DNA from: a virus
Taxonomy: Duplodnaviria > Caudoviricetes
IMG/VR virus record: IMGVR_UViG_3300037808_002146
Reading direction: 5' to 3' (one strand)
Length of the DNA stretch: 64,000 nucleotides
The number at the start of each line of letters is the position of its first letter. Position 1 is the stretch's first letter. Shown here piece after piece: positions 1 through 64,000 of this stretch. The notes beneath the pieces were generated by a model. It had not been told where the DNA came from. It worked only from the letters and a program-made list of their open reading frames with translations, and made no database searches. The position numbers and the translations under genes are program-made.

Positions 1-2148
1 ACTAGCACTTTTTCTTTGTGATTTTAAGAGAGTCTTCTCTTTTTCAAGCAAGTGTTCTATATTTTGTAAGCTTCCCTCTATCTCTTTTTGTTGATTAAGT
101 TTTTCTTTTAACTCTTGAATAGGAAATTGTTCTTTGATAGCAGAAATTTTTTGAAGTTTGTTTTCAATCTCAATTATTTCGTCAGATATGTCTATTATTT
201 TAGACTTCATGAGATTGCTTCTTGATTTCAACTTTACTATCAATTTATCTTGATCTTCTATCTCTTCTTCGGTAAAAGCTTCAGAGTTTTCGTGAGTAGC
301 TAACATCAATTTCATGCTATCAGTTTCTTCTCTAACTTTTCTACATTGCTCTTCAGTTTCGTCTCTATCGCTAGTAATAGACTCTAGTTCTAGTCTTTTA
401 TTTCTAATTATTGACGCCCAGTCTCTGTCCGGAGCACTCTTCATTGAACCTTTTAATTCGGAAAATTCATTTTTTGCAATATTGAGCATATTGTCGAAAA
501 TACCAAGATCTAGAAACTTAGTGAGTATAGATTTTCTTATAGTTGCTCCATTTTTGATAAAATTATTCATAGAGCCTTGGCTTGCTAGAGACGTTAAAAG
601 AAAATCGTCAGAAGTTCCAACTAAGTTTTTTAAATCTTTCTCAGTTTCTCTTCGTTGTTCTCCGCTTAAATCCTCTACTTTGTTTCCTTCACTATCTGTT
701 TTCCACAAATTCAAAGATGTAGATGCTGAGGTCTTTCCAGCTCGGCTGGTATGCTTCGCTGATTGTCTTTCTACTTTATAGGGTTTTCCGTTTACGGATA
801 TATCTAACTCAATATTACAAAATCCTTTTCTAGAATTGATAATATGAATATTCTTAATAGCTCCTCTATCTGTTGAATTAAATAGACTATACATAATAGT
901 CCCTGGGATAGAAGATTTCCCTGTTCTGTTTTTACCAAAAATGCCGGTAATACCATTCATTTTTTCGAAATTAATAATATTTCCATTGCCGTACCCAAAT
1001 GTATTATTAAATTTAAGCTTTTTCAAAGACCATTTAAGATTTTTTCGATACTCTCCTCTAGCAGCTTCAGAAGCAACTCTTTTAGTTAATCCTTCAAGCA
1101 TTTCTCTCTCTTCATTTGAGAGAGGAAAGGTTTTTGTATAGTTACTCATAAGCTTTACGTGAGTAGCTGGGTTTAGGAGATCTTCTTTATCTAAAGTTGT
1201 ATCTCCAATGTTGATTTTATCGTCTTTTGTATCTTCGACGTCCCACTTAAAAACAACTTCTGTTGCTTTATACGTTTCTTTCAACCCATTAGAAAGCTGT
1301 TTTATTTCACTTTGCGGGATTATCGTATTTGATCTAATTCTAAAGCGGCCGTGTTCCATTGATTCGCTTATGTTCTTTAAAGTATCTTCTACGTTTCCCT
1401 CCCAGGGTATTGTATAGAAGGAAAACCTATTTTTAACTGGATAAAACTTGACTTTGAAATCTTCTTTGCTTTCTATATCCCAGACTAAAAAACCTTTTTC
1501 TACATCTTCGCCATAATTTTGTTGGATAGTTGATCCGCAATAAGCGATTCTATTTTCCTCGTCTAAAAATTGACTTTTGTGAATATCTCCAAGGAATGTA
1601 AAATCAAACTCTTTAAAGAAATCTACATTAATTTGATTCGGCTCGTCTATCTCCCAGTCGCTGTCTACCTTTGAGCCTTGAACTGGACCGTGGAAAAGGG
1701 CAATATTGGTCGTATTAGGCACCGGCTTAACTCTTGACCAGGATTCTTCATCGAAACAAGAAAATACGCACCAGCTCACATCATGTGACTCTAACGTATA
1801 AGAATCAGAATCTTTGTAGAGAAAAATTCTATCGTCTCCTATAGCTTGTATGATTGGAGTGATTGCATCTTGGCGATCTTTGTTTAAGATCAAGCCATCA
1901 TGGTTGCCAAGTATTACGTGGACTGGTGCAATGTCGGCTAAACCTTTAAACCACCAAACTAATACATCAATTAATTCGGGTGATATTCCCTGAGTCTTTG
2001 AGTGAACAATATCACCACCGATGAATATTGCATCTAAATTCATTTTAGATATTTTTTTAAAAATATTGCTGAATACTTCTCTGTATTCTTCGTGTCTAGA
2101 TAAACCCCTAAAGTGAATATCAGCAAAATGTGCGCACTTAAAACCCAT
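1..2148 (-). CDS. sbcCD: Fused SbcD(Mre11) nuclease-SbcC(Rad50) ATPase, 3'-truncated by window edge (>=716 aa)
   Basis: Hand translation from ATG at 2148 (MGFKCAHFADIHFRGL) stays open to position 1. Metallophosphoesterase motifs DIH, GGDIVH, LGNHD, FHG and LGDIH plus YCGSTIQQNYGE are present. In the same frame follow KLKFNNTFGYG, Walker A GKNRTGKSS (~910-940), Q-loop SQG and a coiled coil. SD-like TAAGGA upstream. Missing from the ORF track. Confidence 0.93.
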   Translation of the reverse strand, partial: MGFKCAHFADIHFRGLSRHEEYREVFSNIFKKISKMNLDAIFIGGDIVHSKTQGISPELIDVLVWWFKGLADIAPVHVILGNHDGLILNKDRQDAITPIIQAIGDDRIFLYKDSDSYTLESHDVSWCVFSCFDEESWSRVKPVPNTTNIALFHGPVQGSKVDSDWEIDEPNQINVDFFKEFDFTFLGDIHKSQFLDEENRIAYCGSTIQQNYGEDVEKGFLVWDIESKEDFKVKFYPVKNRFSFYTIPWEGNVEDTLKNISESMEHGRFRIRSNTIIPQSEIKQLSNGLKETYKATEVVFKWDVEDTKDDKINIGDTTLDKEDLLNPATHVKLMSNYTKTFPLSNEEREMLEGLTKRVASEAARGEYRKNLKWSLKKLKFNNTFGYGNGNIINFEKMNGITGIFGKNRTGKSSIPGTIMYSLFNSTDRGAIKNIHIINSRKGFCNIELDISVNGKPYKVERQSAKHTSRAGKTSASTSLNLWKTDSEGNKVEDLSGEQRRETEKDLKNLVGTSDDFLLTSLASQGSMNNFIKNGATIRKSILTKFLDLGIFDNMLNIAKNEFSELKGSMKSAPDRDWASIIRNKRLELESITSDRDETEEQCRKVREETDSMKLMLATHENSEAFTEEEIEDQDKLIVKLKSRSNLMKSKIIDISDEIIEIENKLQKISAIKEQFPIQELKEKLNQQKEIEGSLQNIEHLLEKEKTLLKSQRKSAS

Positions 2149-3665: not shown

Positions 3666-3698
3666 ATAATATTATAAGAGTCAAAAGTCGAGTTTAAA
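3666..3698 (-). promoter_or_regulatory. Candidate sigma70-like promoter giving a leaderless ruvC transcript
   Basis: Minus-strand TATAAT (3676-3671) lies 5 nt before the ATG, with TTTAAA (3698-3693) at a 16-nt spacer. No SD is present before this ATG. Confidence 0.35.
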
Positions 3699-6600
3699 CT
3701 TAAAAACGTATCTATCTTCATCTTTTCTAACTATTGGCCTCGATAAATTCACTTTGCCAATTACATTTAAGTTTTCATCATGAAGAAACATGTTGGTGAT
3801 TAAATTACATCCTGTCTCTCTATCAGAAGGTAGATCGGATGGCGACAGCTTTTTATATGTCGGGTTAGTTGATATCCTTGCTTCATCTGCTGAAATTGGT
3901 ACTCTCATCTCTAGCACGTGAAGATTTCGATCTCCCTTGAACTTAGTACTGAACTGATTTACCCCAAATTGTGGAATCGTTGGGTTTGTTAAACATGCTA
4001 AACCTTCTTCATATAAAATTATTCCCGCTTGAGCCCATGTTGGGTGGCTACCAGAAGCGTCGCATCGATATAGCATACCGGTGCCGTTATCTTTAAACGT
4101 CAAGTTTATTTTACCAGCAGAGCCTGTCACCAACGGATCGCTAATAGAGAAAGATTCTCGTTTGATAGCATCACCATAAAAAATATTAGATATGTCTAGA
4201 AACATAATCTCGTTAGAGTCTGGATCTCTAGTTCGATTCAAGACTGTCAAGCCAATTTTGCTTTGTTGCCCATAGACTTCTGAATGTGCTATTTCGCTGA
4301 TATTGCCGGCGTATTCTCCAGACACAGATCTAGCAACAGTGATTTTTGGAAAAAGTCGGCTGACCAAAGAGCCTGGATTTCCATTATCATCGCTAAACGA
4401 AGAAAAATCATTATACTGCTGGCCCATATCTACCATATTACGAAGATTTATCATCCCAGCATATTCTTCTTTTCTATCATTAACGAAAAAATCAACTGAG
4501 CTTTGTTTTGTCAAGGTTGCAACTCTAGAATCTAGATTTCTAAACTTAGGTTTGAAGTTTCCTAAATCACTTGGTAATATAGACAAATTTCTCTTTCGAT
4601 TTTCAGGCTTTAAAACTATAGCTTCAGTGGCGGGCATAAAATCAAAATCATCAGCAGAGAAATTTGACCATGTGCCTGTTGGAGCTGTAGCTGATAGGTT
4701 GTAACACAAAGCTTGATTACCAGTAACTAGATCATGACTAAAGTTTTCCAAATTTATTAGTCGACCGCCTTGGCCAAACGACAAGTCAGTATTAAAAGGA
4801 GTATGGCTACTAGAGTAGTGGGTTTGAGTTACTGTTGACATCATTTGTCTAACTGAGCTAGAAGGTATAAAATAAGGAGGTAAGTAAAACAGCAAGTCCT
4901 TATCCCCAAAATCATAGTAGCCATTTTTAGCAGTAGCTTTAATTTCAGTGTTATTTCTATACTTTGAGAAAATTCTCACTTCTTGTAACTCTGCGTTAAG
5001 CGGGAAGTCTAAAGTATGTGAAACACCTTCACCAGCCGAGATATCGCCAAGTAAACTCTCTACTCCAAACCTGTTAGCTGATCCTGAGTCAAACAAAAAG
5101 CTAGTTTTAGAAGCTGTTGAATTCGAGTTACCATAAATAGGGTTTTGGCTGCTTATTTGAAACATATCAGATAAAAAGTTACCTAAGCTGCCAGATGCTC
5201 TTTGCGCAGGGGAAATTTGAATAGAGCTCGATGGGATAATATCTATCCGGTGATCTGCAATGCTTAAAACTACCTTATTTCCCGATGTTGAAGTAGACAA
5301 ACCAGCTAGTTGCGGATTTTCAGAATTTTCACCGCCGGCAAAGGCGGAGGGAACTGTTGCTGAAGCTGCAGCAGATATTGTGTTTGCAATATTTTTATTG
5401 CCAGCTGTCCCTTTTACGTTTTGAGTCAATACTAACCTGCCAGATGAAGCATTCGCGACTATAGCTCCATTATGTCCAGAGGCATGATTGATAGCTAAAG
5501 CTAAATTGGAAGCTGCAATCGTTGCTGAATTTGCATCGCTGATATTAACTCCACCCACAAAATTTGAAAAACCGGTGATGGCCGCGTCTGTAACCATAGC
5601 TGTAGCTGCCACTACCTTATCTCCCGAAGCGCCTCCAAAATCTTGAACGAAGATCAACTGTTGATTTCCAGTGACCCCGGCTGAGTCGGGATTTGTTACT
5701 GTGTTTGGCGTAATTGAAATTAATCCAGCGTTAGATCTTGCCAAAACTACATTTCTAATAGTATTCGCTAAAACCGATTTATTAGCAGCGCCTTGAATAC
5801 CGATCAAAATGTTACCGGCAGAAGATGGGTTGGCATGGGTGGTAGTTCCATTGTTAGTCGCATGATTAAATGCTACTGCTGAATCAAATTGAAACACTGC
5901 CGTTCTTGCGCCATCAGGGTGGTTATCTATTAAAGAAAACGTTTTGTCGTCTAAGCCCGAAATTGAATCTGCTATAGGATCAGCAGCGTTATTTGGTATT
6001 GCTAAGGTTGATTTAGAAGCAGTAAGCCCACTTTTGAAATTGGGTGGTACAGAAGTGTTGAAATTCTCCGAAGTGTACGCTTTAGAGTTATTTCCAGAGT
6101 CTATCAAAGTAATCGTATTCCCTTTCGGTATCGCTTTAGTAAAGTCGATAATTGCAGTAGCTGCAGCTCCATGGGCTAGCGTATTATTTACCAAAGCTCC
6201 CGTAAAAGCCGCCCTAGTTCTAGAGATTAAATTAGAAACGCTTGTATTTGCATGAATATTACTTGATATGTTATTTACCCTAACGGTATCTGCCGGTAAC
6301 GAAGCTAGCGAAGATGTTACAAAAAATATGTCTCTAGTAACCTTAGCATCTGTGCTATTATTGGTGGTAGTCACCGTGAGTTTTCCAGTAGCTTTTGTGC
6401 TATCAAATGCTGGAGAAAACAAAGAACCTGTCAAAAGTGTTACGACATCGTCATCGTCAACTGCAGTGGTGCCAGACACTGTAGCTTGATTACTACATCT
6501 ATATCTGTTACCAACTAATAAAGCTGATGGGATATTGTTCAAATCGGTAAATTTTTCTTTCCCAAAAGATAATGTAGTATTCGGTATTGTTATATTACCC

Positions 6601-7574
6601 GCATGCTGGCCATCTATATAAAAACTTCCTGTATAATTGTTTTGTTTTGGGCCACCCCATCTAATTGCACAATAGCTCCAACGGTCTTTTTGCAAAAAGT
6701 TGTCAGCAGAGACGTAGGTTAGCTCTGGTTCATTACTGCCCGAAGATGAGTTACTAGGTAGGGTGATTAAATTCAAGGGCCTAGTCGTATAGTCTCCTAA
6801 CTGCAGCGCTAATCGAAATGACTTTGGTCGGCCAAATTCATCGACGTGTGATCCTGAGTGTAACGAAACAGTGTAACAATTAGGCATATTTAAGATTGTG
6901 CCAGGTTGATAATGATCATTGCTTGTGTCAGTTGTGTATCGCGGATTGATATAGAATTCAAAACTAAATGAAGCCGACGGGAAATACCTAGCTGGTTTAT
7001 ACCTAGTGACTCCATCAACATCGATGCTGCTAGTTGTTGGAACTGGATAAATAAAAGCAGAATCGCTTGGAACGTTAGACGGAAAAGCTGCCGAAGATGT
7101 AAAGAAGTTTAAACTATGGTAATTAGAAAAACCAAAAGACAAAGGTCTTTCATATTCTCCTTGGTAAAATGGCAATAAGTTCTTAACGAAAACAGATTTC
7201 CTCATAGTATTTGCATTAAGACGGTGAGGCATATCAAATCTGTAGACTATTAATTTCTTGTCATTATCCAGTGAGCCAGCTAGTTGTCCTATAGATGTTA
7301 TGTAGTTGTTAACAAAACCAGATATATCTTTTTTGTTTTTTCTACTATCTTTTCTAATGATATCGCCAGAATCGTCCAACGTAAGTAAAGACTTTACATC
7401 AAACATATATTCTTCTAACTCGGGAGTTATTTCCTTAAGCGTGTTGCTTCTTTCAGCAAATAAGAAAACATCTCCAGTTATCCCGGAAATAGAAGAAGAA
7501 ATAAAGTGCTGGTTTGGATGAACTTTTACCGAGCTGACTCTTATGTCTTCAGGTAGAATAGGGATGAGCGCCAT
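3681..7574 (-). CDS. Virion (tail/baseplate) protein, 1297 aa, with LamG-like domain split by nested plug-in modules; C-terminal ...SRPIVRKDEDRYVFKFKLDF
   Basis: LamG-like motifs FSFEFYINP, WSYCAIRW, FYIDG and LLVGN, with the closing strand LQEVRIFSK far downstream. C-terminus is paralogous to 7587..8978. Confidence 0.7.
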   Translation of the reverse strand: MALIPILPEDIRVSSVKVHPNQHFISSSISGITGDVFLFAERSNTLKEITPELEEYMFDVKSLLTLDDSGDIIRKDSRKNKKDISGFVNNYITSIGQLAGSLDNDKKLIVYRFDMPHRLNANTMRKSVFVKNLLPFYQGEYERPLSFGFSNYHSLNFFTSSAAFPSNVPSDSAFIYPVPTTSSIDVDGVTRYKPARYFPSASFSFEFYINPRYTTDTSNDHYQPGTILNMPNCYTVSLHSGSHVDEFGRPKSFRLALQLGDYTTRPLNLITLPSNSSSGSNEPELTYVSADNFLQKDRWSYCAIRWGGPKQNNYTGSFYIDGQHAGNITIPNTTLSFGKEKFTDLNNIPSALLVGNRYRCSNQATVSGTTAVDDDDVVTLLTGSLFSPAFDSTKATGKLTVTTTNNSTDAKVTRDIFFVTSSLASLPADTVRVNNISSNIHANTSVSNLISRTRAAFTGALVNNTLAHGAAATAIIDFTKAIPKGNTITLIDSGNNSKAYTSENFNTSVPPNFKSGLTASKSTLAIPNNAADPIADSISGLDDKTFSLIDNHPDGARTAVFQFDSAVAFNHATNNGTTTHANPSSAGNILIGIQGAANKSVLANTIRNVVLARSNAGLISITPNTVTNPDSAGVTGNQQLIFVQDFGGASGDKVVAATAMVTDAAITGFSNFVGGVNISDANSATIAASNLALAINHASGHNGAIVANASSGRLVLTQNVKGTAGNKNIANTISAAASATVPSAFAGGENSENPQLAGLSTSTSGNKVVLSIADHRIDIIPSSSIQISPAQRASGSLGNFLSDMFQISSQNPIYGNSNSTASKTSFLFDSGSANRFGVESLLGDISAGEGVSHTLDFPLNAELQEVRIFSKYRNNTEIKATAKNGYYDFGDKDLLFYLPPYFIPSSSVRQMMSTVTQTHYSSSHTPFNTDLSFGQGGRLINLENFSHDLVTGNQALCYNLSATAPTGTWSNFSADDFDFMPATEAIVLKPENRKRNLSILPSDLGNFKPKFRNLDSRVATLTKQSSVDFFVNDRKEEYAGMINLRNMVDMGQQYNDFSSFSDDNGNPGSLVSRLFPKITVARSVSGEYAGNISEIAHSEVYGQQSKIGLTVLNRTRDPDSNEIMFLDISNIFYGDAIKRESFSISDPLVTGSAGKINLTFKDNGTGMLYRCDASGSHPTWAQAGIILYEEGLACLTNPTIPQFGVNQFSTKFKGDRNLHVLEMRVPISADEARISTNPTYKKLSPSDLPSDRETGCNLITNMFLHDENLNVIGKVNLSRPIVRKDEDRYVFKFKLDF

Positions 7575-59200: not shown

Positions 59201-61924
59201 TGAATTTCTAGTGGTTCTAGAAATGTCAAACTTAAGAGTAACAGTTAAGAAATTTCCTTTTGAATCAGCTAAGACGAAATTTTTATTATGTAACGCTCCA
59301 CTCGCTCCGGCATCATATATAGTTTTAGAAACATTATTAGTAATGGTAAGATTTGTTTTCGCTTTATAGCTACTAACAACCCTTATTTTTAAATCGCTTC
59401 CAGAACCTTTAAAAGACTCTATGTGCAAGTTATATAAACCATCACCAGGATCTTTTGGTATATCTTTAATTCTCAAAACCAAAGAGGGTTTCTTGTCAGA
59501 TTTATCGTTGAGAACAACTTTCGGATTAGCTAATGGTTGAAATCTTGCTCGAGTTTGATTTCTTAGTTGCTCGATAGTTCTTAAGTTGATGCCTTGTTCA
59601 AAACCTATAAGCTTAACTTCTGATGAATCTCTTATTGAAGCCATTTAAAATCTCCTTATTACGCCTGATCTTTGAGATACCAGTATTTTAGAGCGTAATT
59701 TCGAACGCTCATCTTCTCCCTTATATATCTCTTGATGTCCATATGCTACCTTATATCTCTCTAACGCGTGCGATTCTATTATTAAATTGATACCTAAGAA
59801 ATTGTTATTCCTAGGGACTAGTCGTTCTATCATATCAGAAAAAGCGTCATCTAACCATCTAAATAAATCGAAAAAATTTCTATAATTGACTTTCTCAGTT
59901 AGCCTATTAAAATATAAATTCCTCATATTTCTTAAATCCGGATATTCCTGCGCGAACACTAACTCTGGTTTTCCTAGTGCATCGTCCAAAGCATCGATAG
60001 CCGAGAATATATTCATTATATCTTCGTCTAGTCCTCTTTGCAAGTGTATTTGAACTTCGAACCTATTATCATTTGCTTTCTTTTCAAAAGGTAAAACTTC
60101 TGTTACGGGTGCTATTTTTGAATTGTAGAGTTTAATATTTGATCCGTCAGAAAAGCCAGCTATTTTAATTTTATCGCTGTCTAAATACTCATCAAAAAAC
60201 GGTGATATTATCGTATAGTCAAAACGTTCATTGTGAACAATTTTATTGTTCACTTCAAACCCAAACCCAAGAGCACCAGACAAACTAGTATAAGTTCCAT
60301 TAGATATTTTTTCTTGATTATCCAGGGTGAAAGTTTGACTAAAATCTAAAAAGTTTAATTTCCCAAAAGGGTTTGATTTCATCTCTGGCTGATCGGTGGA
60401 TATATTTAACCTTAGTTTTTGAAAAGAACCAGACATGCTAGTACTAAATGTATTGCTAACTAACGGGTTATCAACACCTACCGACTTGAAGTTACGAGCG
60501 TGTTCTATAGATTCTGTTACTGTTAAATACTTCGACCAAAACCTAATATGACCAACTTTACCATCAAAGTATGATGTTCTTGCATGATTTATAACAGCTG
60601 AATCATTTATAAACATGCTATTTCCAGCTGGATCTACCATTGATTGAGAGCCTATTAGAATTTGAGGTGGATTATAGTTTTCCGACTCGTGCTTCAAATT
60701 TTGAAACATATTATCGTTAGCTAACCCTTCATCAAAAAATGATCCAGTAACAATAAATGTAGATAACTTATCAAAATCTAAAGAAGCGGCTCTGATAAAA
60801 TAAGAAGAACTAACCGGTTGGTTCATATCATCATTTCTTCTTCGGCCATAAGTTATATGCCATTTTTTGCCATCCAAACAGTTTGCGCCAGTTAAAATTG
60901 TTTTTAAAACCGGAGCTGTATTGGTTTGGCTATTCCTAACATAAAGTGTTAACTCATTGCCAAATGGTGACAATACTAAGTTAGATAATACTGCATGTTT
61001 ATCTTTAAAATTTTGGCCTGGAGTGACTCCTTGGGTTACTATCCTGGACAAGCTTCTTCTACTCTCATTAGATAAATTACTAGGAAACTGATAAATACCT
61101 TCTACTGTCCAAGAACCTGAAGTAAATAGTCCATCGTTTGGAGAAGCGGATATACCGGCGTATGAGTATCCCGGGGTGTTTGCTCTAACCATGCCTTTAC
61201 CACTCGAAAAGCCAGAAAGAGTTAAGTTAGAATCAGATGGTGCCATGGAGATTGTATGATTACCTAGGTTACGTCTGTTGAATCCTTTAGTCGTTATCTT
61301 TATTGTGTCTAAATTTGTACCAGCTGCGCTATTTTTAGTTTCTACATTAAATGAGTTTGGAAAAGCAGTAGTAATCGCAGTGCTAATATCTGTTACTAGC
61401 TGCATTGTTGTTTTGTTAGAACCACCAGCCTGCCTATTTATTACAATAGAGCCTCCAGAGAAATTAGTCGGAGTCAAATTAGAAATATTGTTAGTGATAC
61501 TCTTGTTACCAATATTGCCGGCTGTTGTTTGAGTAATCGTTATAGACTGATTTCCGTCAGCAGCAGACGGAGCAGCTGATACTGTTATTTTTCCATCGTG
61601 ACCATTTGCGTGTTCAATAGCTGCCTTTAATAAACCAAGAAACTCAGCTTGATCAATTCCAGCTGCTAGAGCTGCTCCTAAATTGAAGCCAACCGCAATT
61701 GCCTTATGAGCTCCTGGAGTAAGGGTTGCTCTAATATTTCCAGTTGTTTTTAACAAAGCATTATTAGCTATAATACCTAAGTGCGCTACCCCTCCATCGT
61801 TAGTATCTGAAACGAAATAGTCGGCTATAGTTCCTGCTGCTGATTGGATTGTTATTTTCTGGCCGGCTGTCATACCATGGATCGCGTCGCCATCGGTAAC
61901 AGTTAGGGTTGAAGTGGCTTTATC
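55520..61924 (-). repeat. Dispersed repeat: plug-in module copies at ~55520-55980 and ~61451-61924
   Basis: Exact 21-aa match GIDQAEFLGLLKAAIEHANGH and exact 24-nt match taaaccaagaaactcagcttgatc (55690-55713 and 61631-61654). Confidence 0.88.
56261..59644 (-). CDS. Virion protein, 1127 aa, with plug-in modules
   Basis: AGGAGA SD. Modules at ~58950-59365 (…IAITQNKSGEIGN…FSTG) and ~57270-57745 (…LKQRVPGTIGN…). 8-nt overlap with the 4671-aa gene. Confidence 0.65.
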   Translation of the reverse strand: MASIRDSSEVKLIGFEQGINLRTIEQLRNQTRARFQPLANPKVVLNDKSDKKPSLVLRIKDIPKDPGDGLYNLHIESFKGSGSDLKIRVVSSYKAKTNLTITNNVSKTIYDAGASGALHNKNFVLADSKGNFLTVTLKFDISRTTRNSSTSWDVSLAGIDNTSDTTVRNGVASKIHLALSQVSSDKDLDISASLNTNVIAITQNKSGEIGNLANSGTLISSSFITLPSFSTGKNGLLRTLNTGDLRHPRDNNAFALGLMDAPGYYVGEPNAVPYDDVINSSIQKIKKITFDLNNIINYNASTSGVTSRIIQDDTLLLTQEVGSLSVESGIGKKIKQEGLNNSSPETTIFGLENWKLTTKAVNDFMFHDLLTEGKKADASSRSATLLLAFPDLSFYRPSSNLKIRFFHIRYDILNTRISKNPLLDSKSNAEIDFYIINGDDNTDPVRIIRKNNSEIEVLIKSFSGEYGNDSSKIVSFRKKLFIERLRTSLERLNKNFHLKLELETISADNEEYSIKVTENKTRLTYFKAFSETKVATDKSQLYITFSNDYRSFMQENRVFRIYDRETNSKKLIQLIPNRAEYGSYRITQDGANSVQYQIGIRGVTSLQDFKDRFFDAILLAKDNDDIDLTPSTKNAYARIAVTSGSDPHGTTPLTDRITIKSSSGNQKTYTIVHGGRGGSKAVPTGEKLIEGSKYAPGLVVPSSNAAIGTIAVNIRSNFSKRDVLNELANAMNTVNGHNSGLDNHVISAFPMDPNSPSTQYLHLKQRVPGTIGNNAITKNGFSIFTIIGFINANNYISKNCVKLQNTVNNGTPYIPTNALDNQRNFYQIGPNINAQNAYTLEDFSNPVITVEMRDGADQNSYYLKPNHDVEVRSFGFGQRTSDLRFYEDLSLNGPKLHLDGYNRTLNMDPVFFVKSDSSVRFPIQVNNLGSSLGFEHDGVIEPLGIRDLMLGRVITEKSIKGLSGELGGEYAYSSIRKESYEISNKITFEKSKNVAFFDNCPGISDYMKGYQELGVNFADPAETAERDNVFYSRVPGVIFKNDSRIQPYIDTEEVIFRTNPLNGNNPETNEMDILVLTLQEMNSNIVATRVAGNESLGGENFRRKAGYDYSSPHPGTDSIVFSGLRYV

Positions 61925-64000
61925 ACTGGCGCTTGAGTTAGCAAACTTAAAAATTTCTGTATTGTTGTAAGCGTCTTGAATTGTTACTTTAGTGTTTATA
62001 GATGGCAAAGCAGTTTGATTTGTAGAATGGAGCTTTATGGTTCCTGTTGCTAAAATTCCGCTGTTTACGCCACCCGAAATCTCTGGATATCCTGGCTCAA
62101 TCCTGCTACCGGATAGCGGAGCAGAAAGTAATGTAGGCCTACCGATTATAGTCCCGTCTGGTCGAGGTGTTTCCTTTATCGTACTCAAACTTCCAGAAAA
62201 ATTTAAAAGAGTTGACATTTCTGTTATTTTTTGTCTAGAAGTACCTAACCTAAATTCATCCACCCCATTATATTCTACTAACCTGAATAGTCTATCTGGT
62301 TCTATGCCGGCGGATCGAAATATAGATTCAATAGCATATTTAGTTCCTTTAGATTTGAATATATGACTTATATTTTTTAATACTCTTCTCCATATTAAAT
62401 TTTGTACTTCTGACAGGCTTTTTTCATATATGCTATATTCTAACCCTAGATTTTCTTTACCTAAAAATTGTTCTAACGCAACATCACCAAACACTTTTGG
62501 CAATTCAAACCCATAGTATTTCGCTAAGTCTGGTAAAAATGCGTCAGCTACGCCTTCAACTCCTAGATAGTCGGGATTCAAAAACTGAGATACTTGATCA
62601 ATGTACATTTTATACTGGTCTAACTCTTCAGCCATATAATAAAGGAACATTGAAATCAATTGAGCATGGCCGAGTCTTCCCGATTTTGGCAAATTAGAAT
62701 AAGAACTATAAGATTCTACGATATCTCCGTCTACAGTAGAGCCTTCTAAATAAGCTCCTTCTTGCAGATAATGGTTTGGTACCAGCTTGGTAATCAAATT
62801 CGGATTATTCACATCATATAAAGTTGCTTTTTGTAAAAGTTTTGAGTTGAGGCTTATTACTTCTGGGGAGCTTGGAAAAAGTACAGGGTTATAATGAGAG
62901 TCTTCCAAAAACATTGGATTATCGACTTCATGGGGCAGTCTCATCGCTTCTTTGTAGTTAGATATTTGAGTGTGCAAACTATTGCCACTGTGATCTAAAG
63001 CTAGATTGTTGTTTGTATGTGATCCTGTTGGCTCATTAAACTTAAAGTAAAGTTTTAAGCTATCATGAGCAAATATATTTCGGCGTGAATAGTAACTAAC
63101 TTCGTCAAGATCTCTAATACCATGAAATAACCTGAATTCGTCTAGAGAGCCGCTGAATGTTGATGATTTATTGAATACGAGGTTGTTATTTCCAGCATCT
63201 AAGTTTTCTCCATCACCAATTTTTAATTTTTGATTTCCTGTGTTGATAATACCATAATCGAAAAAATCGCTAGTAGATAAAACTGTTGAACCTGAGAGAA
63301 TTTTTAGTGTTTGTTGTTCTGTCCTATTATCATACTGAAAAGATAAGTTATGCCACTTTCCTTTTTTTATTGTGTAACTAGCACTAGCGTAATTATAGCT
63401 GCCACTCATAAGAGCAAAATTAACTTTGCAGTTTTTTGACGATGCTGTTTGATTAAAAAAAACAGCATACCCAGAATTTTCGCCTGCCGTTGAATTTATA
63501 CTATGAAACAAAAAGCTGTTTCCGTTAGATTCTTCAGGTAATCTTAAACAGCACTCTATAGAAAAGGAGTTATTTCGAGGGTTAATATGAGATACGCCTT
63601 GTTCACCTTTTAATAGGGTTTGGCTATAATCGCCAGACTTATCTTTTACCTCAATGTATTGACTACTAGAAGAATCAAAGGTCAAAAAACCTCTACTCTT
63701 TGGGAATTTATTAAACACATGTTTTTCGAGAGAAGATAAATTGTCTTCAAATGTTTCGATTTCTTCTAATGTTCCATCAAAGGGATATTCGTTAATAATT
63801 TTATTAAAAGCGACATTTATCTTTGCTTCAGCAGATCCAAAAAAAGTATTATTTTGAAAAAGAGAATTATCAACCGGGAGCTGCTGAGTTGAAATTAATC
63901 CATTGCCAGCTTCCTTTCTTTTAAAACTAGATTCGCTAGTGTTAACGCTGGTTTTTGTTAATTTTTTTTGATTTTGATCTAAGAGTATCCCTGTTGTAGT
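59645..64000 (-). CDS. Baseplate wedge-like protein (P2 gpI/T4 gp7-like region + LamG domains), 5'-truncated (>=1451 aa)
   Basis: The frame stays open from the track's GTG (63718) to 64000 (…STQQLPVD…FFGSAEAKINVAFNKIINEYPFDG…), so the true start is off-window. FLPDLAKYYGFELP and FKSKGTKYAIESIF match gpI-like baseplate motifs. Two LamG-like domains. Confidence 0.7.
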   Translation of the reverse strand, partial: TTTGILLDQNQKKLTKTSVNTSESSFKRKEAGNGLISTQQLPVDNSLFQNNTFFGSAEAKINVAFNKIINEYPFDGTLEEIETFEDNLSSLEKHVFNKFPKSRGFLTFDSSSSQYIEVKDKSGDYSQTLLKGEQGVSHINPRNNSFSIECCLRLPEESNGNSFLFHSINSTAGENSGYAVFFNQTASSKNCKVNFALMSGSYNYASASYTIKKGKWHNLSFQYDNRTEQQTLKILSGSTVLSTSDFFDYGIINTGNQKLKIGDGENLDAGNNNLVFNKSSTFSGSLDEFRLFHGIRDLDEVSYYSRRNIFAHDSLKLYFKFNEPTGSHTNNNLALDHSGNSLHTQISNYKEAMRLPHEVDNPMFLEDSHYNPVLFPSSPEVISLNSKLLQKATLYDVNNPNLITKLVPNHYLQEGAYLEGSTVDGDIVESYSSYSNLPKSGRLGHAQLISMFLYYMAEELDQYKMYIDQVSQFLNPDYLGVEGVADAFLPDLAKYYGFELPKVFGDVALEQFLGKENLGLEYSIYEKSLSEVQNLIWRRVLKNISHIFKSKGTKYAIESIFRSAGIEPDRLFRLVEYNGVDEFRLGTSRQKITEMSTLLNFSGSLSTIKETPRPDGTIIGRPTLLSAPLSGSRIEPGYPEISGGVNSGILATGTIKLHSTNQTALPSINTKVTIQDAYNNTEIFKFANSSASDKATSTLTVTDGDAIHGMTAGQKITIQSAAGTIADYFVSDTNDGGVAHLGIIANNALLKTTGNIRATLTPGAHKAIAVGFNLGAALAAGIDQAEFLGLLKAAIEHANGHDGKITVSAAPSAADGNQSITITQTTAGNIGNKSITNNISNLTPTNFSGGSIVINRQAGGSNKTTMQLVTDISTAITTAFPNSFNVETKNSAAGTNLDTIKITTKGFNRRNLGNHTISMAPSDSNLTLSGFSSGKGMVRANTPGYSYAGISASPNDGLFTSGSWTVEGIYQFPSNLSNESRRSLSRIVTQGVTPGQNFKDKHAVLSNLVLSPFGNELTLYVRNSQTNTAPVLKTILTGANCLDGKKWHITYGRRRNDDMNQPVSSSYFIRAASLDFDKLSTFIVTGSFFDEGLANDNMFQNLKHESENYNPPQILIGSQSMVDPAGNSMFINDSAVINHARTSYFDGKVGHIRFWSKYLTVTESIEHARNFKSVGVDNPLVSNTFSTSMSGSFQKLRLNISTDQPEMKSNPFGKLNFLDFSQTFTLDNQEKISNGTYTSLSGALGFGFEVNNKIVHNERFDYTIISPFFDEYLDSDKIKIAGFSDGSNIKLYNSKIAPVTEVLPFEKKANDNRFEVQIHLQRGLDEDIMNIFSAIDALDDALGKPELVFAQEYPDLRNMRNLYFNRLTEKVNYRNFFDLFRWLDDAFSDMIERLVPRNNNFLGINLIIESHALERYKVAYGHQEIYKGEDERSKLRSKILVSQRSGVIRRF

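What the first reader, a model, noticed from the sequence alone, without database searches (positions are those of the whole stretch)
5250..6395. Three-level Russian-doll insertion inside a LamG domain of the 1297-aa protein
Seen in translation order: module 1 (KATGKLTVTT…, ~6395), then module 2 (GAAATAIIDF…GNTITLIDS…, ~6170), then a complete module 3 (ASKSTLAI…KTFSLID…VFQFD…VQDFGGASGD…FVGG, ~6020-5551). Module 2 then resumes (VNISD…NLALAINHASGHNG…LTQNVKGTAGN…FAGG, 5550-5331), followed by module 1 (…STSGNKVVLSI, ~5330-5250). The whole stack lies between the LLVGN strand and the closing LQEVRIFSK strand of a LamG-like domain. Inference: successive insertions built a stalk of stacked domains.
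Basis: partly seen in the sequence, partly recalled or inferred. Interest (0 to 1): 0.75.

Follow-up and report, generated by a model that had tools for sequence, protein, structure and literature searches.

The report
Nested add-on domains in phage protein
A likely structural protein of an uncultured marine T4-like phage carries small add-on domains inserted one inside another within a lectin-like domain, and relatives that lack the innermost one, or the whole stack, show it grew by insertion; this is a clear new example of an architecture already known from phage tail sheaths and flagellins.

Summary
Every quoted motif is at the stated place in the 1297-aa gene (window 3681-7574, minus strand).

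Inner level, firm:
- Eleven homologues lack exactly residues 520-678, which is module 3.
- A profile built from their unbroken module 2 matches this protein in two pieces, on either side of module 3.
- Single-domain tail-sheath and FliD structures align across the split.
- A tree of the core, backed by an AU test, makes module 3 a gain in the ancestor of this protein and one relative.

Whole stack: about 53 shorter homologues lack it, and lectin-fold matches span both of its flanks.

Modules 2 and 3 belong to one domain family that recurs in neighbouring giant genes. Its fold resembles the outer add-on domains of tail sheaths, FliD and flagellin.

Weaker points:
- Module 1 is not detectably of that family.
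- No homologue has module 1 alone, so module 2's insertion into module 1 rests on a confident AlphaFold model and a weak-support two-chain prediction.
- The insert is wider than stated (about 364-818), with an extra neck layer.

Nested domains are already known in T4 gp18, flagellin and cyanobacterial Si3, and this scan has noted similar nests in other phage genomes. This is a new variant of moderate interest.

The parts
3681..7574 (-). Gene for the 1297-aa LamG-bearing protein (P0001). It is the last large gene before the RuvC-like, primase and SbcCD genes.
   Evidence: ORF list and translation. Homologues sit at the same syntenic position next to TerL, Portal_T4 and Peptidase_S77.
6486..7007 (-). 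LamG/ConA-like jelly-roll, N-terminal part (residues about 190-363, ending with the LLVGN strand).
   Evidence: Weak Pfam Laminin_G_3 match at 275-336. VIA-align Z up to 12.7 to CBM40, pentraxin and PAPP-A LamG domains, with about 150 aligned residues spanning model 9..701.
6396..6485 (-). Neck layer, N part (residues about 364-393, with the DDDD motif and strand 377-380).
   Evidence: Present only in the 13 stack-bearing homologues. DSSP strand in the model.
6171..6395 (-). Module 1, N part (residues 394-468): three strands, then a helix.
   Evidence: AF2 pLDDT 87-95, with E397-405, E411-419, E430-432 and H446-457. No match to the module family profile.
6018..6170 (-). Module 2, N part (residues 469-519): strands 1-3/4 of the plug-in domain.
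   Evidence: Matches positions 1-60 of a profile built from the unbroken module 2 of P0004-P0014. Sheath and FliD domains align over model 285..567.
5541..6017 (-). Module 3 (residues 520-678): a complete, contiguous plug-in domain and the most recent insertion.
   Evidence: Absent as an exact block from P0004-P0014. Scores 17.5-18.6 bits against a family profile that never saw it, while 200 shuffles reach at most 9.1 bits. AF2 with the family alignment gives pLDDT 79.4 and pTM 0.79. pN is 0.115, as in the core.
5331..5540 (-). Module 2, C part (residues 679-748): helix, strands 5-6, the G..GN motif and the closing FAGG.
   Evidence: Matches profile positions 56-127. pLDDT 83-97.
5250..5330 (-). 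Module 1, C part (residues 749-775): a beta hairpin.
   Evidence: E760-764 and E767-771 at high pLDDT. A two-chain prediction of the N flank with the C flank gave weak support: 0.46 against a best control of 0.00.
5121..5249 (-). Neck layer, C part (residues about 776-818).
   Evidence: Present only in stack-bearing homologues. Strand 775-783; pLDDT is lower, about 56-68, further on.
4920..5120 (-). LamG jelly-roll, C-terminal part (residues about 819-885, including the closing LQEVRIFSK strand).
   Evidence: Aligned in all 66 homologues. It is part of the jelly-roll match that spans model 9..701.

Best explanation
This 1297-aa protein belongs to an uncultured marine T4-like myovirus. Its role in the virion is inferred, not shown.

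Architecture. One surface loop of its LamG/ConA-like jelly-roll, the loop after the LLVGN strand, carries a nested set of inserted domains. From outside to inside these are a neck, module 1, module 2 and module 3.

What the modules are. Modules 2 and 3 belong to one family of 110-160-residue alpha/beta 'plug-in' domains. The family recurs in the neighbouring giant genes. Its fold resembles the outer add-on domains of myophage tail sheaths, FliD and flagellin.

Why nesting works (inferred). The N and C termini of this domain lie together, so it can be dropped into a loop without breaking the host domain. Its own variable loop, between strand 3/4 and the helix, tolerates another copy. Repeated insertion would therefore extend the structure outward, domain by domain.

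Shown here:
- The stack was gained once in a 13-member clade.
- Module 3 was added later, as an exact 159-residue in-frame block, in the common ancestor of this phage and one Tara Oceans relative.
- Module 3 has since been kept under purifying selection as strong as that on the protein core.

Inferred:
- The stack forms a protruding stalk with module 3 at its tip.
- The stalk serves surface adhesion or virion decoration.
For: Exact indels:
- P0004-P0014 lack residues 520-678.
- About 53 homologues lack about 364-818.

Split domain:
- A profile of the unbroken module 2 matches residues 469-523 at profile positions 1-60, and residues 677-748 at positions 56-127.
- Contiguous PDB domains align to model 285..562-567 with only 92-102 aligned residues, so they bridge the module 3 gap. 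These are A-1(L) sheath 91-184 (Z 9.3, rmsd 2.2), PhiTE sheath (Z 8.7), Mu sheath (Z 8.5), FliD (Z 8.3) and T7 gp12 (Z 8.0).
- The same chains and chain ranges also match the separate model of module 3, at Z 5.7-7.4.

Family membership of module 3:
- It scores 17.5-18.6 bits against a profile built without P0001 or P0003. The best of 200 shuffles scores 9.1 bits.
- It folds confidently with the family alignment: pLDDT 79.4, pTM 0.79.

Host domain: LamG-fold matches reach Z 12.7 and span both flanks of the insert.

Direction of change:
- In the core-only tree, (P0001, P0003) sits at 100/100 inside (P0004, P0005), inside the two-level clade, inside insert-less lineages.
- The AU test rejects monophyly of the two-level proteins, p = 0.0002.

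Selection: between P0001 and P0003, pN is 0.115 for module 3 and 0.115 for the C-terminal core, while pS is about 0.7.

Orthology and phage type: synteny is conserved with RuvC-like, primase, SbcCD, TerL, Portal_T4 and Peptidase_S77.

Not an assembly artefact: an identical protein occurs on an independent ENA contig, and P0003 occurs in 3 samples.

Another self-nest of the family lies in the same window, at 61199-62050.
Against: - Module 1 gives no signal against the family profile: -0.7 bits by hmmsearch, and hhalign probability 6.7% over the helix only.
- No homologue has module 1 alone. The claim that module 2 was inserted into module 1 therefore rests on AF2 confidence and a weak-support two-chain prediction. 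That prediction scored 0.46 against a best control of 0.00. This mark was reached by 58 of 80 solved complexes and 2 of 110 mismatched pairs. At a score of 0.60 or under, only 7 of those 80 solved complexes reached it, and so did both mismatches. The runs agree in at least 75% of contacts, and the partner's pLDDT is at least 57.
- Model coordinates could not be inspected, so the stalk geometry is inferred.
- No donor of module 3 was found.
- Structural Z scores for module 3 alone are below 8, a range the tool calls common.
- Virion location and function are untested. PHROGs, Pfam and PDB sequence searches gave no functional name.
Confidence: 0.8

Rival explanations
1. Only two insertion events took place. 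Neck, module 1 and module 2 arrived together as one pre-assembled cassette, or module 1 is an adaptor domain unrelated to the plug-in family. Module 3 was added later. On this reading the 'three successive insertions' are really a cassette plus one insertion.
For: Neck, module 1 and module 2 appear together on the tree, with no intermediates. Module 1 is not detectably a family member. Its insertion point is after the helix, whereas in module 2 it is before the helix.
Against: The order of secondary-structure elements in module 1 (three strands, a helix, then a hairpin) resembles the family. Its helix carries a similar L..RL..AI.G motif. Missing intermediates may simply reflect sampling.
Confidence: 0.4
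2. Module 3 is ancestral to the stack and was precisely deleted in the other lineages, so the variation reflects loss and not insertion.
For: Deletion of a self-contained domain with adjacent termini is structurally harmless. All two-level proteins share the same junction.
Against: The three-level pair is nested at 100/100 inside (P0004, P0005) and deeper two-level clades. Loss would therefore need at least 3-4 independent deletions with identical ends, against one gain. The AU test rejects a single two-level clade, p = 0.0002.
Confidence: 0.06
3. The modules are a linear tandem array with strand swapping or repeats, not a true nest. The apparent 'resumption' of the outer modules is then a chance motif resemblance.
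For: Pairwise similarity between the modules is not significant.
Against: The natural unbroken module 2 in 11 homologues equals the two flanks of module 3 joined together. Structural matches bridge the gap. Module 3 folds alone as a complete domain.
Confidence: 0.03

Closest known systems
Phage T4 tail sheath protein gp18 (domain I inserted into II, II into III, III between the termini that form domain IV; PMC3004832) and the 'additional domains' of type 2 and type 3 myophage sheath proteins (PMC9230969)
   Same: Both have Russian-doll topology, with each outer domain made of the segments that flank the next inner one. In both, the added domains point away from the conserved core, and larger phages have more of them. 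Modules 2 and 3 match the outer sheath domains of A-1(L), Mu, PhiTE, XM1 and E217 structurally, at Z 6.2-9.3.
   Different: The host here is a LamG jelly-roll of a non-sheath protein, with no Phage_sheath Pfam match. Two of the nested domains are homologous to each other. Natural intermediates with 0, 2 and 3 levels are available.
Flagellin D0-D3, FliD D2/D3 and giant flagellins
   Same: These have nested hairpin domain architecture with variable outer domains. Stepwise growth by insertion has been shown phylogenetically for giant flagellins (PMC6248924). The best structural match of module 3 is FliD D2/D3, Z 7.8.
   Different: There is no sequence relation, the core is not a coiled coil, and this is a phage protein and not a filament subunit.
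Si3 insertion of cyanobacterial RNA polymerase beta' (eight SBHM domains, four of them built from distant parts of the chain; PMC10895346)
   Same: Copies of one domain family lie inside each other and produce an elongated appendage on a loop of a host domain.
   Different: The fold is different (SBHM), the host is a different machine, and this nest is shallower.
The 'plug-in' module family in the neighbouring giant genes of this genome (scan notes e1-5376946 and e1-5376936)
   Same: Modules 2 and 3 match a profile of that family. A second self-nest lies at window 61199-62050.
   Different: In this gene the family sits inside a LamG loop, on top of a non-family module 1 and a neck.

Membership tests
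ConA-like / LamG jelly-roll (Pfam PF13385 Laminin_G_3), host domain | Jelly-roll beta-sandwich fold shared with LamG, pentraxin and CBM40 domains. | tested here: met
   VIA-align Z 11-12.7, rmsd 2.4-3.3, 145-154 aligned residues to NanB CBM40, PTX3, SAP and PAPP-A. Foldseek E about 1e-3.
ConA-like / LamG jelly-roll (Pfam PF13385 Laminin_G_3), host domain | Pfam profile match above the gathering score. | tested here: not met
   P0001 scores 23.9 bits against a cut-off of 27.6, matching only residues 275-336 because the domain is interrupted. Several homologues carry a precomputed PF13385 hit.
Plug-in add-on domain family of this phage group (no Pfam entry) | Significant match to a family profile built without the sequence under test. 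| tested here: met
   Module 3: 17.5-18.6 bits, i-E about 1e-7 at Z=1, with shuffles at most 9.1 bits. Spliced module 2: 82-96 bits.
Plug-in add-on domain family of this phage group (no Pfam entry) | The same test applied to module 1. | tested here: not met
   Spliced module 1 scores -0.7 to -1.3 bits. hhalign probability is 6.7%, over the helix only.
Outer (additional) domain fold of myophage tail sheaths, FliD D2/D3 and flagellin | Structural superposition over most of the domain. | tested here: met
   Module 2: A-1(L) sheath Z 9.3, rmsd 2.2, 92 aligned. Module 3: FliD Z 7.8 with 106 aligned, and A-1(L) sheath Z 7.4. Z values under 8 are common according to the tool, so this shows a shared fold class and does not prove homology.
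Tail sheath protein | Conserved sheath core formed by the N and C termini (Pfam Phage_sheath families). | tested here: not met
   No sheath family in Pfam or PHROGs for P0001. The core is a LamG domain plus unknown domains.
Nested (Russian-doll) domain insertion | The inner domain is contiguous, and the outer domain is formed by the two flanking segments. | tested here: met
   Shown for module 3 in module 2 and for the stack in LamG.
Nested (Russian-doll) domain insertion | The same for module 2 in module 1. | tested here: inconclusive
   High AF2 pLDDT on both flanks. Two-chain prediction gave weak support, 0.46 against a best control of 0.00.
Intein or other self-splicing protein insert (considered for module 3) | Hint/intein or homing-endonuclease domain. 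| tested here: not met
   No Pfam family at E up to 10 for residues 519-675. The fold is an alpha/beta add-on domain.

The most novel reading that the evidence does not exclude
The plug-in domain is an evolvable 'telescopic' building block. Because its own distal loop accepts another copy, phages can lengthen a surface stalk one domain at a time. The newest, outermost copy (module 3) is the most conserved part of the stack. It would be the functional tip that binds a host-surface ligand, so recursive self-insertion would be a general way for marine T4-like phages to tune the reach and specificity of a virion adhesin.
Probability: 0.2. Interest if true: 0.6.

Novelty: new variant of a known kind. 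Interest (0 to 1): 0.42.

Why it matters
Nested domain insertion is usually inferred from a single finished structure. This case offers three things together:
- orthologues at one syntenic locus with 0, 2 and 3 levels
- an exact 159-residue junction
- a rooted order of events

That makes it a clean natural series for studying how a domain is inserted into a copy of itself without loss of folding, and how large phages enlarge their virion proteins. It also adds to the evidence for an undescribed add-on domain family, with no Pfam entry, that decorates several giant proteins of abundant marine T4-like phages.

Tried and rejected
- Pairwise Smith-Waterman comparison of the modules with shuffling was not significant.
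- phmmer of module 3 against 1.84 billion representative proteins found 0 hits.
- A word-indexed search of residues 519-675 found only the protein itself and P0003. No donor was found.
- tblastn of P0001 against GenBank phages found no match.
- PHROGs on P0001, its neighbours and 30 short homologues gave nothing useful.
- PDB sequence searches with the protein and with a family profile gave nothing.
- The first AF2 run left module 3 unfolded (pLDDT below 50) because only two sequences cover it. Refolding it alone with a family alignment solved this.
- Foldseek against the PDB for module 3 gave only weak rows, E at least 0.19.
- The long homologues (1673-1850 aa) were checked for deeper nests. 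Their extra length lies elsewhere and does not match the module profile.
- GC and GC3 of module 3 do not differ from the rest of the gene, so composition gives no sign of recent foreign origin.
- dN/dS could not be computed properly because synonymous sites are saturated.
- The intein reading of module 3 was rejected.
- In-silico deletion constructs were not folded, because altered sequences are not accepted by the tools.

Full report
**Observation.** The finding lies in one gene, window 3681-7574 on the minus strand, which encodes a 1297-aa protein. Residue n starts at window position 7574-3(n-1).
- module 1, N part: 394-468
- module 2, N part: 469-518
- module 3: 519-675
- module 2, C part: 676-748
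- module 1, C part: 749-775
- LLVGN: 352-356
- LQEVRIFSK: 863-871

Pfam sees only a sub-threshold Laminin_G_3 fragment (residues 275-336, 23.9 bits against a cut-off of 27.6). It sees nothing in the insert.

**Context.**
- The window is a run of giant minus-strand ORFs, up to 4671 aa, several with LamG or pentraxin matches.
- These are followed by a RuvC-like resolvase, a primase and an SbcCD-like nuclease.
- Orthologues of the 1297-aa protein occupy the same position in other marine contigs. The next genes there are RuvC-like, primase, SbcCD, TerL (Terminase_6N), Portal_T4 and Peptidase_S77.
- The element is therefore an uncultured marine T4-like myovirus, in agreement with earlier notes of this scan.
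- No match exists in GenBank phages, PHROGs or PDB sequences.
- Atlas neighbours of a short homologue are viral 'hypothetical protein' clusters, some with Laminin_G_3.

**Natural deletion series.** A search of 5.8 billion proteins gave 66 homologues that fall into length classes. In a joint alignment:
- P0003 (1294 aa, 77% identity) has all three modules.
- P0004-P0014 (1125-1181 aa) lack exactly residues 520-678. Their sequence runs without a break from ...FKSG.TAS to SDA..., so module 2 is contiguous in them.
- About 53 proteins (748-1003 aa, plus some longer ones) lack about 364-818 altogether. They join the LLVGN strand to the K-T-S-F-L-F-D strand by a short loop.

At DNA level the inner indel is an in-frame 477-nt block, window 5541-6017, with a serine codon kept on each side. 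Its GC and GC3 do not stand out. The identical protein occurs on an independent ENA contig, and P0003 occurs on a Tara scaffold seen in three samples. The architecture is therefore not an assembly artefact.

**Is module 2 really one domain split by module 3?** Three lines of evidence say yes.
1. A profile built only from the unbroken module 2 of P0004-P0014 matches the window protein in two pieces. Residues 469-523 match profile positions 1-60, and residues 677-748 match positions 56-127.
2. AlphaFold2 on residues 185-885, with a 55-sequence alignment, models both flanks at pLDDT 83-97. Exactly residues 521-674 are left unmodelled, because only two sequences cover them.
3. An exhaustive structural comparison of that model finds contiguous single domains that align to model residues 285..562-567 (protein 469..746-751) with only 92-102 aligned residues, so they bridge the module 3 gap:
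   - cyanophage A-1(L) sheath 91-184: Z 9.3, rmsd 2.2
   - PhiTE sheath 84-179: Z 8.7
   - Mu sheath 97-215: Z 8.5
   - P. aeruginosa FliD 102-232: Z 8.3
   - T7 gp12 142-247: Z 8.0

In the same search the LamG, pentraxin and CBM40 matches (Z up to 12.7, about 150 aligned residues) span model residues 9..701. This shows that the whole stack sits inside the jelly-roll (Foldseek agrees).

**Is module 3 a domain of the same family?**
- Pairwise comparison says nothing. Module 3 has no detectable relative outside P0001 and P0003 in 1.84 billion representatives, nor in a word-indexed search.
- I therefore built a family profile by iteration. The database held the window's proteins, the homologues and 22 related viral loci. 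P0001 and P0003 were left out.
- Module 3 scores 17.5-18.6 bits against this profile (i-E about 1e-7 for one sequence), while 200 composition-matched shuffles reach at most 9.1 bits.
- Folded alone with an alignment of 43 family members, it gives a confident single domain (pLDDT 79.4, pTM 0.79). The element order is b1-b2-b3-b4-helix-b5-b6.
- Its best structural matches are H. pylori FliD (Z 7.8, 106 aligned), A-1(L) sheath 93-184 (Z 7.4), Mu, XM1, PhiTE and E217 sheaths (Z 6.2-6.8), T7-like nozzle proteins and T4 gp11.
- Five of the chains and chain ranges that match split module 2 (A-1(L), PhiTE and Mu sheaths, P. aeruginosa FliD, T7 gp12) also match module 3, at Z 5.7-7.4.
- Predicted-structure libraries give phage 'baseplate J-like' and uncharacterised proteins (E 3e-5 to 2e-4). 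They also give viral clusters, sheath, T4 gp13, FlgE_D2 and flagellin at TM 0.6-0.68.
- Z values under 8 are in the range the tool calls common. I therefore claim a shared fold class with these outer add-on domains and do not claim proven homology.

**Module 1 and the neck.**
- Module 1 has three strands and a helix before module 2, and a beta hairpin after it, all at high pLDDT.
- It does not match the family profile: -0.7 bits, and hhalign probability 6.7% over the helix only.
- No homologue has it without module 2.
- A two-chain prediction of the unaltered N flank (366-468) with the C flank (749-830) stands in for deleting modules 2 and 3. It gave weak support: 0.46 against a best control of 0.00. 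The mark was reached by 58 of 80 solved complexes and 2 of 110 mismatches. At 0.60 or below it was reached by only 7 of those 80 solved complexes and by both mismatches. The runs agree in at least 75% of contacts, and the partner's pLDDT is at least 57.
- The outer level is therefore probable but not demonstrated.
- A further neck layer (about 364-393 and 776-818) is also specific to stack-bearing proteins.

**Direction and order.**
- A maximum-likelihood tree on core columns only, with the insert left out, places (P0001, P0003) at 100/100 inside a clade with P0004 and P0005. That clade lies inside a 10-member and then a 13-member two-level clade, which in turn lies inside insert-less lineages.
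- Two state changes suffice.
- The AU test rejects a tree in which the two-level proteins form one clade (delta lnL 102, p = 0.0002). I named the group after seeing the first tree.
- The stack was therefore gained once, and module 3 was added later. The loss scenario would need at least three or four identical deletions.
- Between P0001 and P0003 synonymous sites are saturated (pS about 0.7). Non-synonymous divergence of module 3 (pN 0.115) equals that of the conserved core. Module 1 (0.37) and module 2 (0.21) evolve faster. Module 3 is thus a selected, functional domain.

**Mechanism.**
- Shown: this is a nest made of an add-on domain family, and the family also self-nests in a neighbouring gene (window 61199-62050; profile pieces 1-39, then 1-124, then 50-124). 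The family also occupies a different site in homologue P0033.
- Both insertion points fall in the length-variable region between strand 3 and the helix.
- Inferred from general knowledge of insertion domains: the domain's adjacent termini let it enter loops harmlessly. Its variable loop, presumed to lie opposite the termini, lets it accept a copy of itself, so the structure grows outward.
- Also inferred: the result is a protruding stalk on a virion protein, used for adhesion or decoration.

**Comparison with what is known.**
- Russian-doll topology is textbook for T4 gp18: domain I lies in II, II in III, and III between the termini that form domain IV (PMC3004832).
- Extra sheath domains increase with genome size (PMC9230969).
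- Giant flagellins grew by stepwise insertion (PMC6248924).
- Cyanobacterial Si3 has SBHM domains built from distant chain segments (PMC10895346).
- This scan has also reported nested lectin-type domains in phage proteins of other genomes.

The present case is a new variant. It has a different host domain and same-family recursion, and its natural series of intermediates is unusually clean.

**Verdict.** The outer level remains provisional, and novelty is moderate.

Noticed in passing
window 61199-62050 (minus strand; residues 651-934 of the 5'-open ORF 59645-64000): A second self-nest of the same domain family. Profile positions 1-39 fall at residues 651-694, a complete copy at 695-850, and positions 50-124 at 859-934. 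The split point here is earlier in the domain than in the 1297-aa protein.
   Followed up: partly
P0033 residues 112-242 (homologue of the 1297-aa protein): This 1075-aa homologue has no insert in the LamG loop. It carries a full plug-in module in its N-terminal region instead, so the family has entered this protein family at two or more different sites.
   Followed up: no
P0029, P0031, P0037, P0039, P0043-P0045, P0048 (1673-1850 aa homologues): These carry about 200 extra N-terminal residues, and roughly 700 more between the positions that align to residues 185 and 345 of the window protein. That places the extra sequence in other parts of the LamG region. It does not match the module profile or any Pfam family.
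   Followed up: partly
P0015, P0017, P0018, P0020, P0023, P0024 (910-950 aa homologues): These have a small, different insert at the same LamG loop, plus a conserved segment of about 22 residues (…DP..F.P.F.F.GDG…) in the next loop. The same loop therefore hosts several unrelated additions.
   Followed up: no
window 1-2148 (minus strand, runs off the window) and L023:14091-17240: A single ORF combines SbcD-like (Metallophos) and SbcC-like (AAA_23) parts. It is 1049 aa in relatives, and so is a fused version of the T4 gp47/gp46-type nuclease pair.
   Followed up: no
window 5250-6395, P0001 against P0003: The innermost and youngest module is the most conserved part of the stack: pN is 0.115, against 0.21 for module 2 and 0.37 for module 1. 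This is unexpected if the tip were under diversifying selection for host range.
   Followed up: partly
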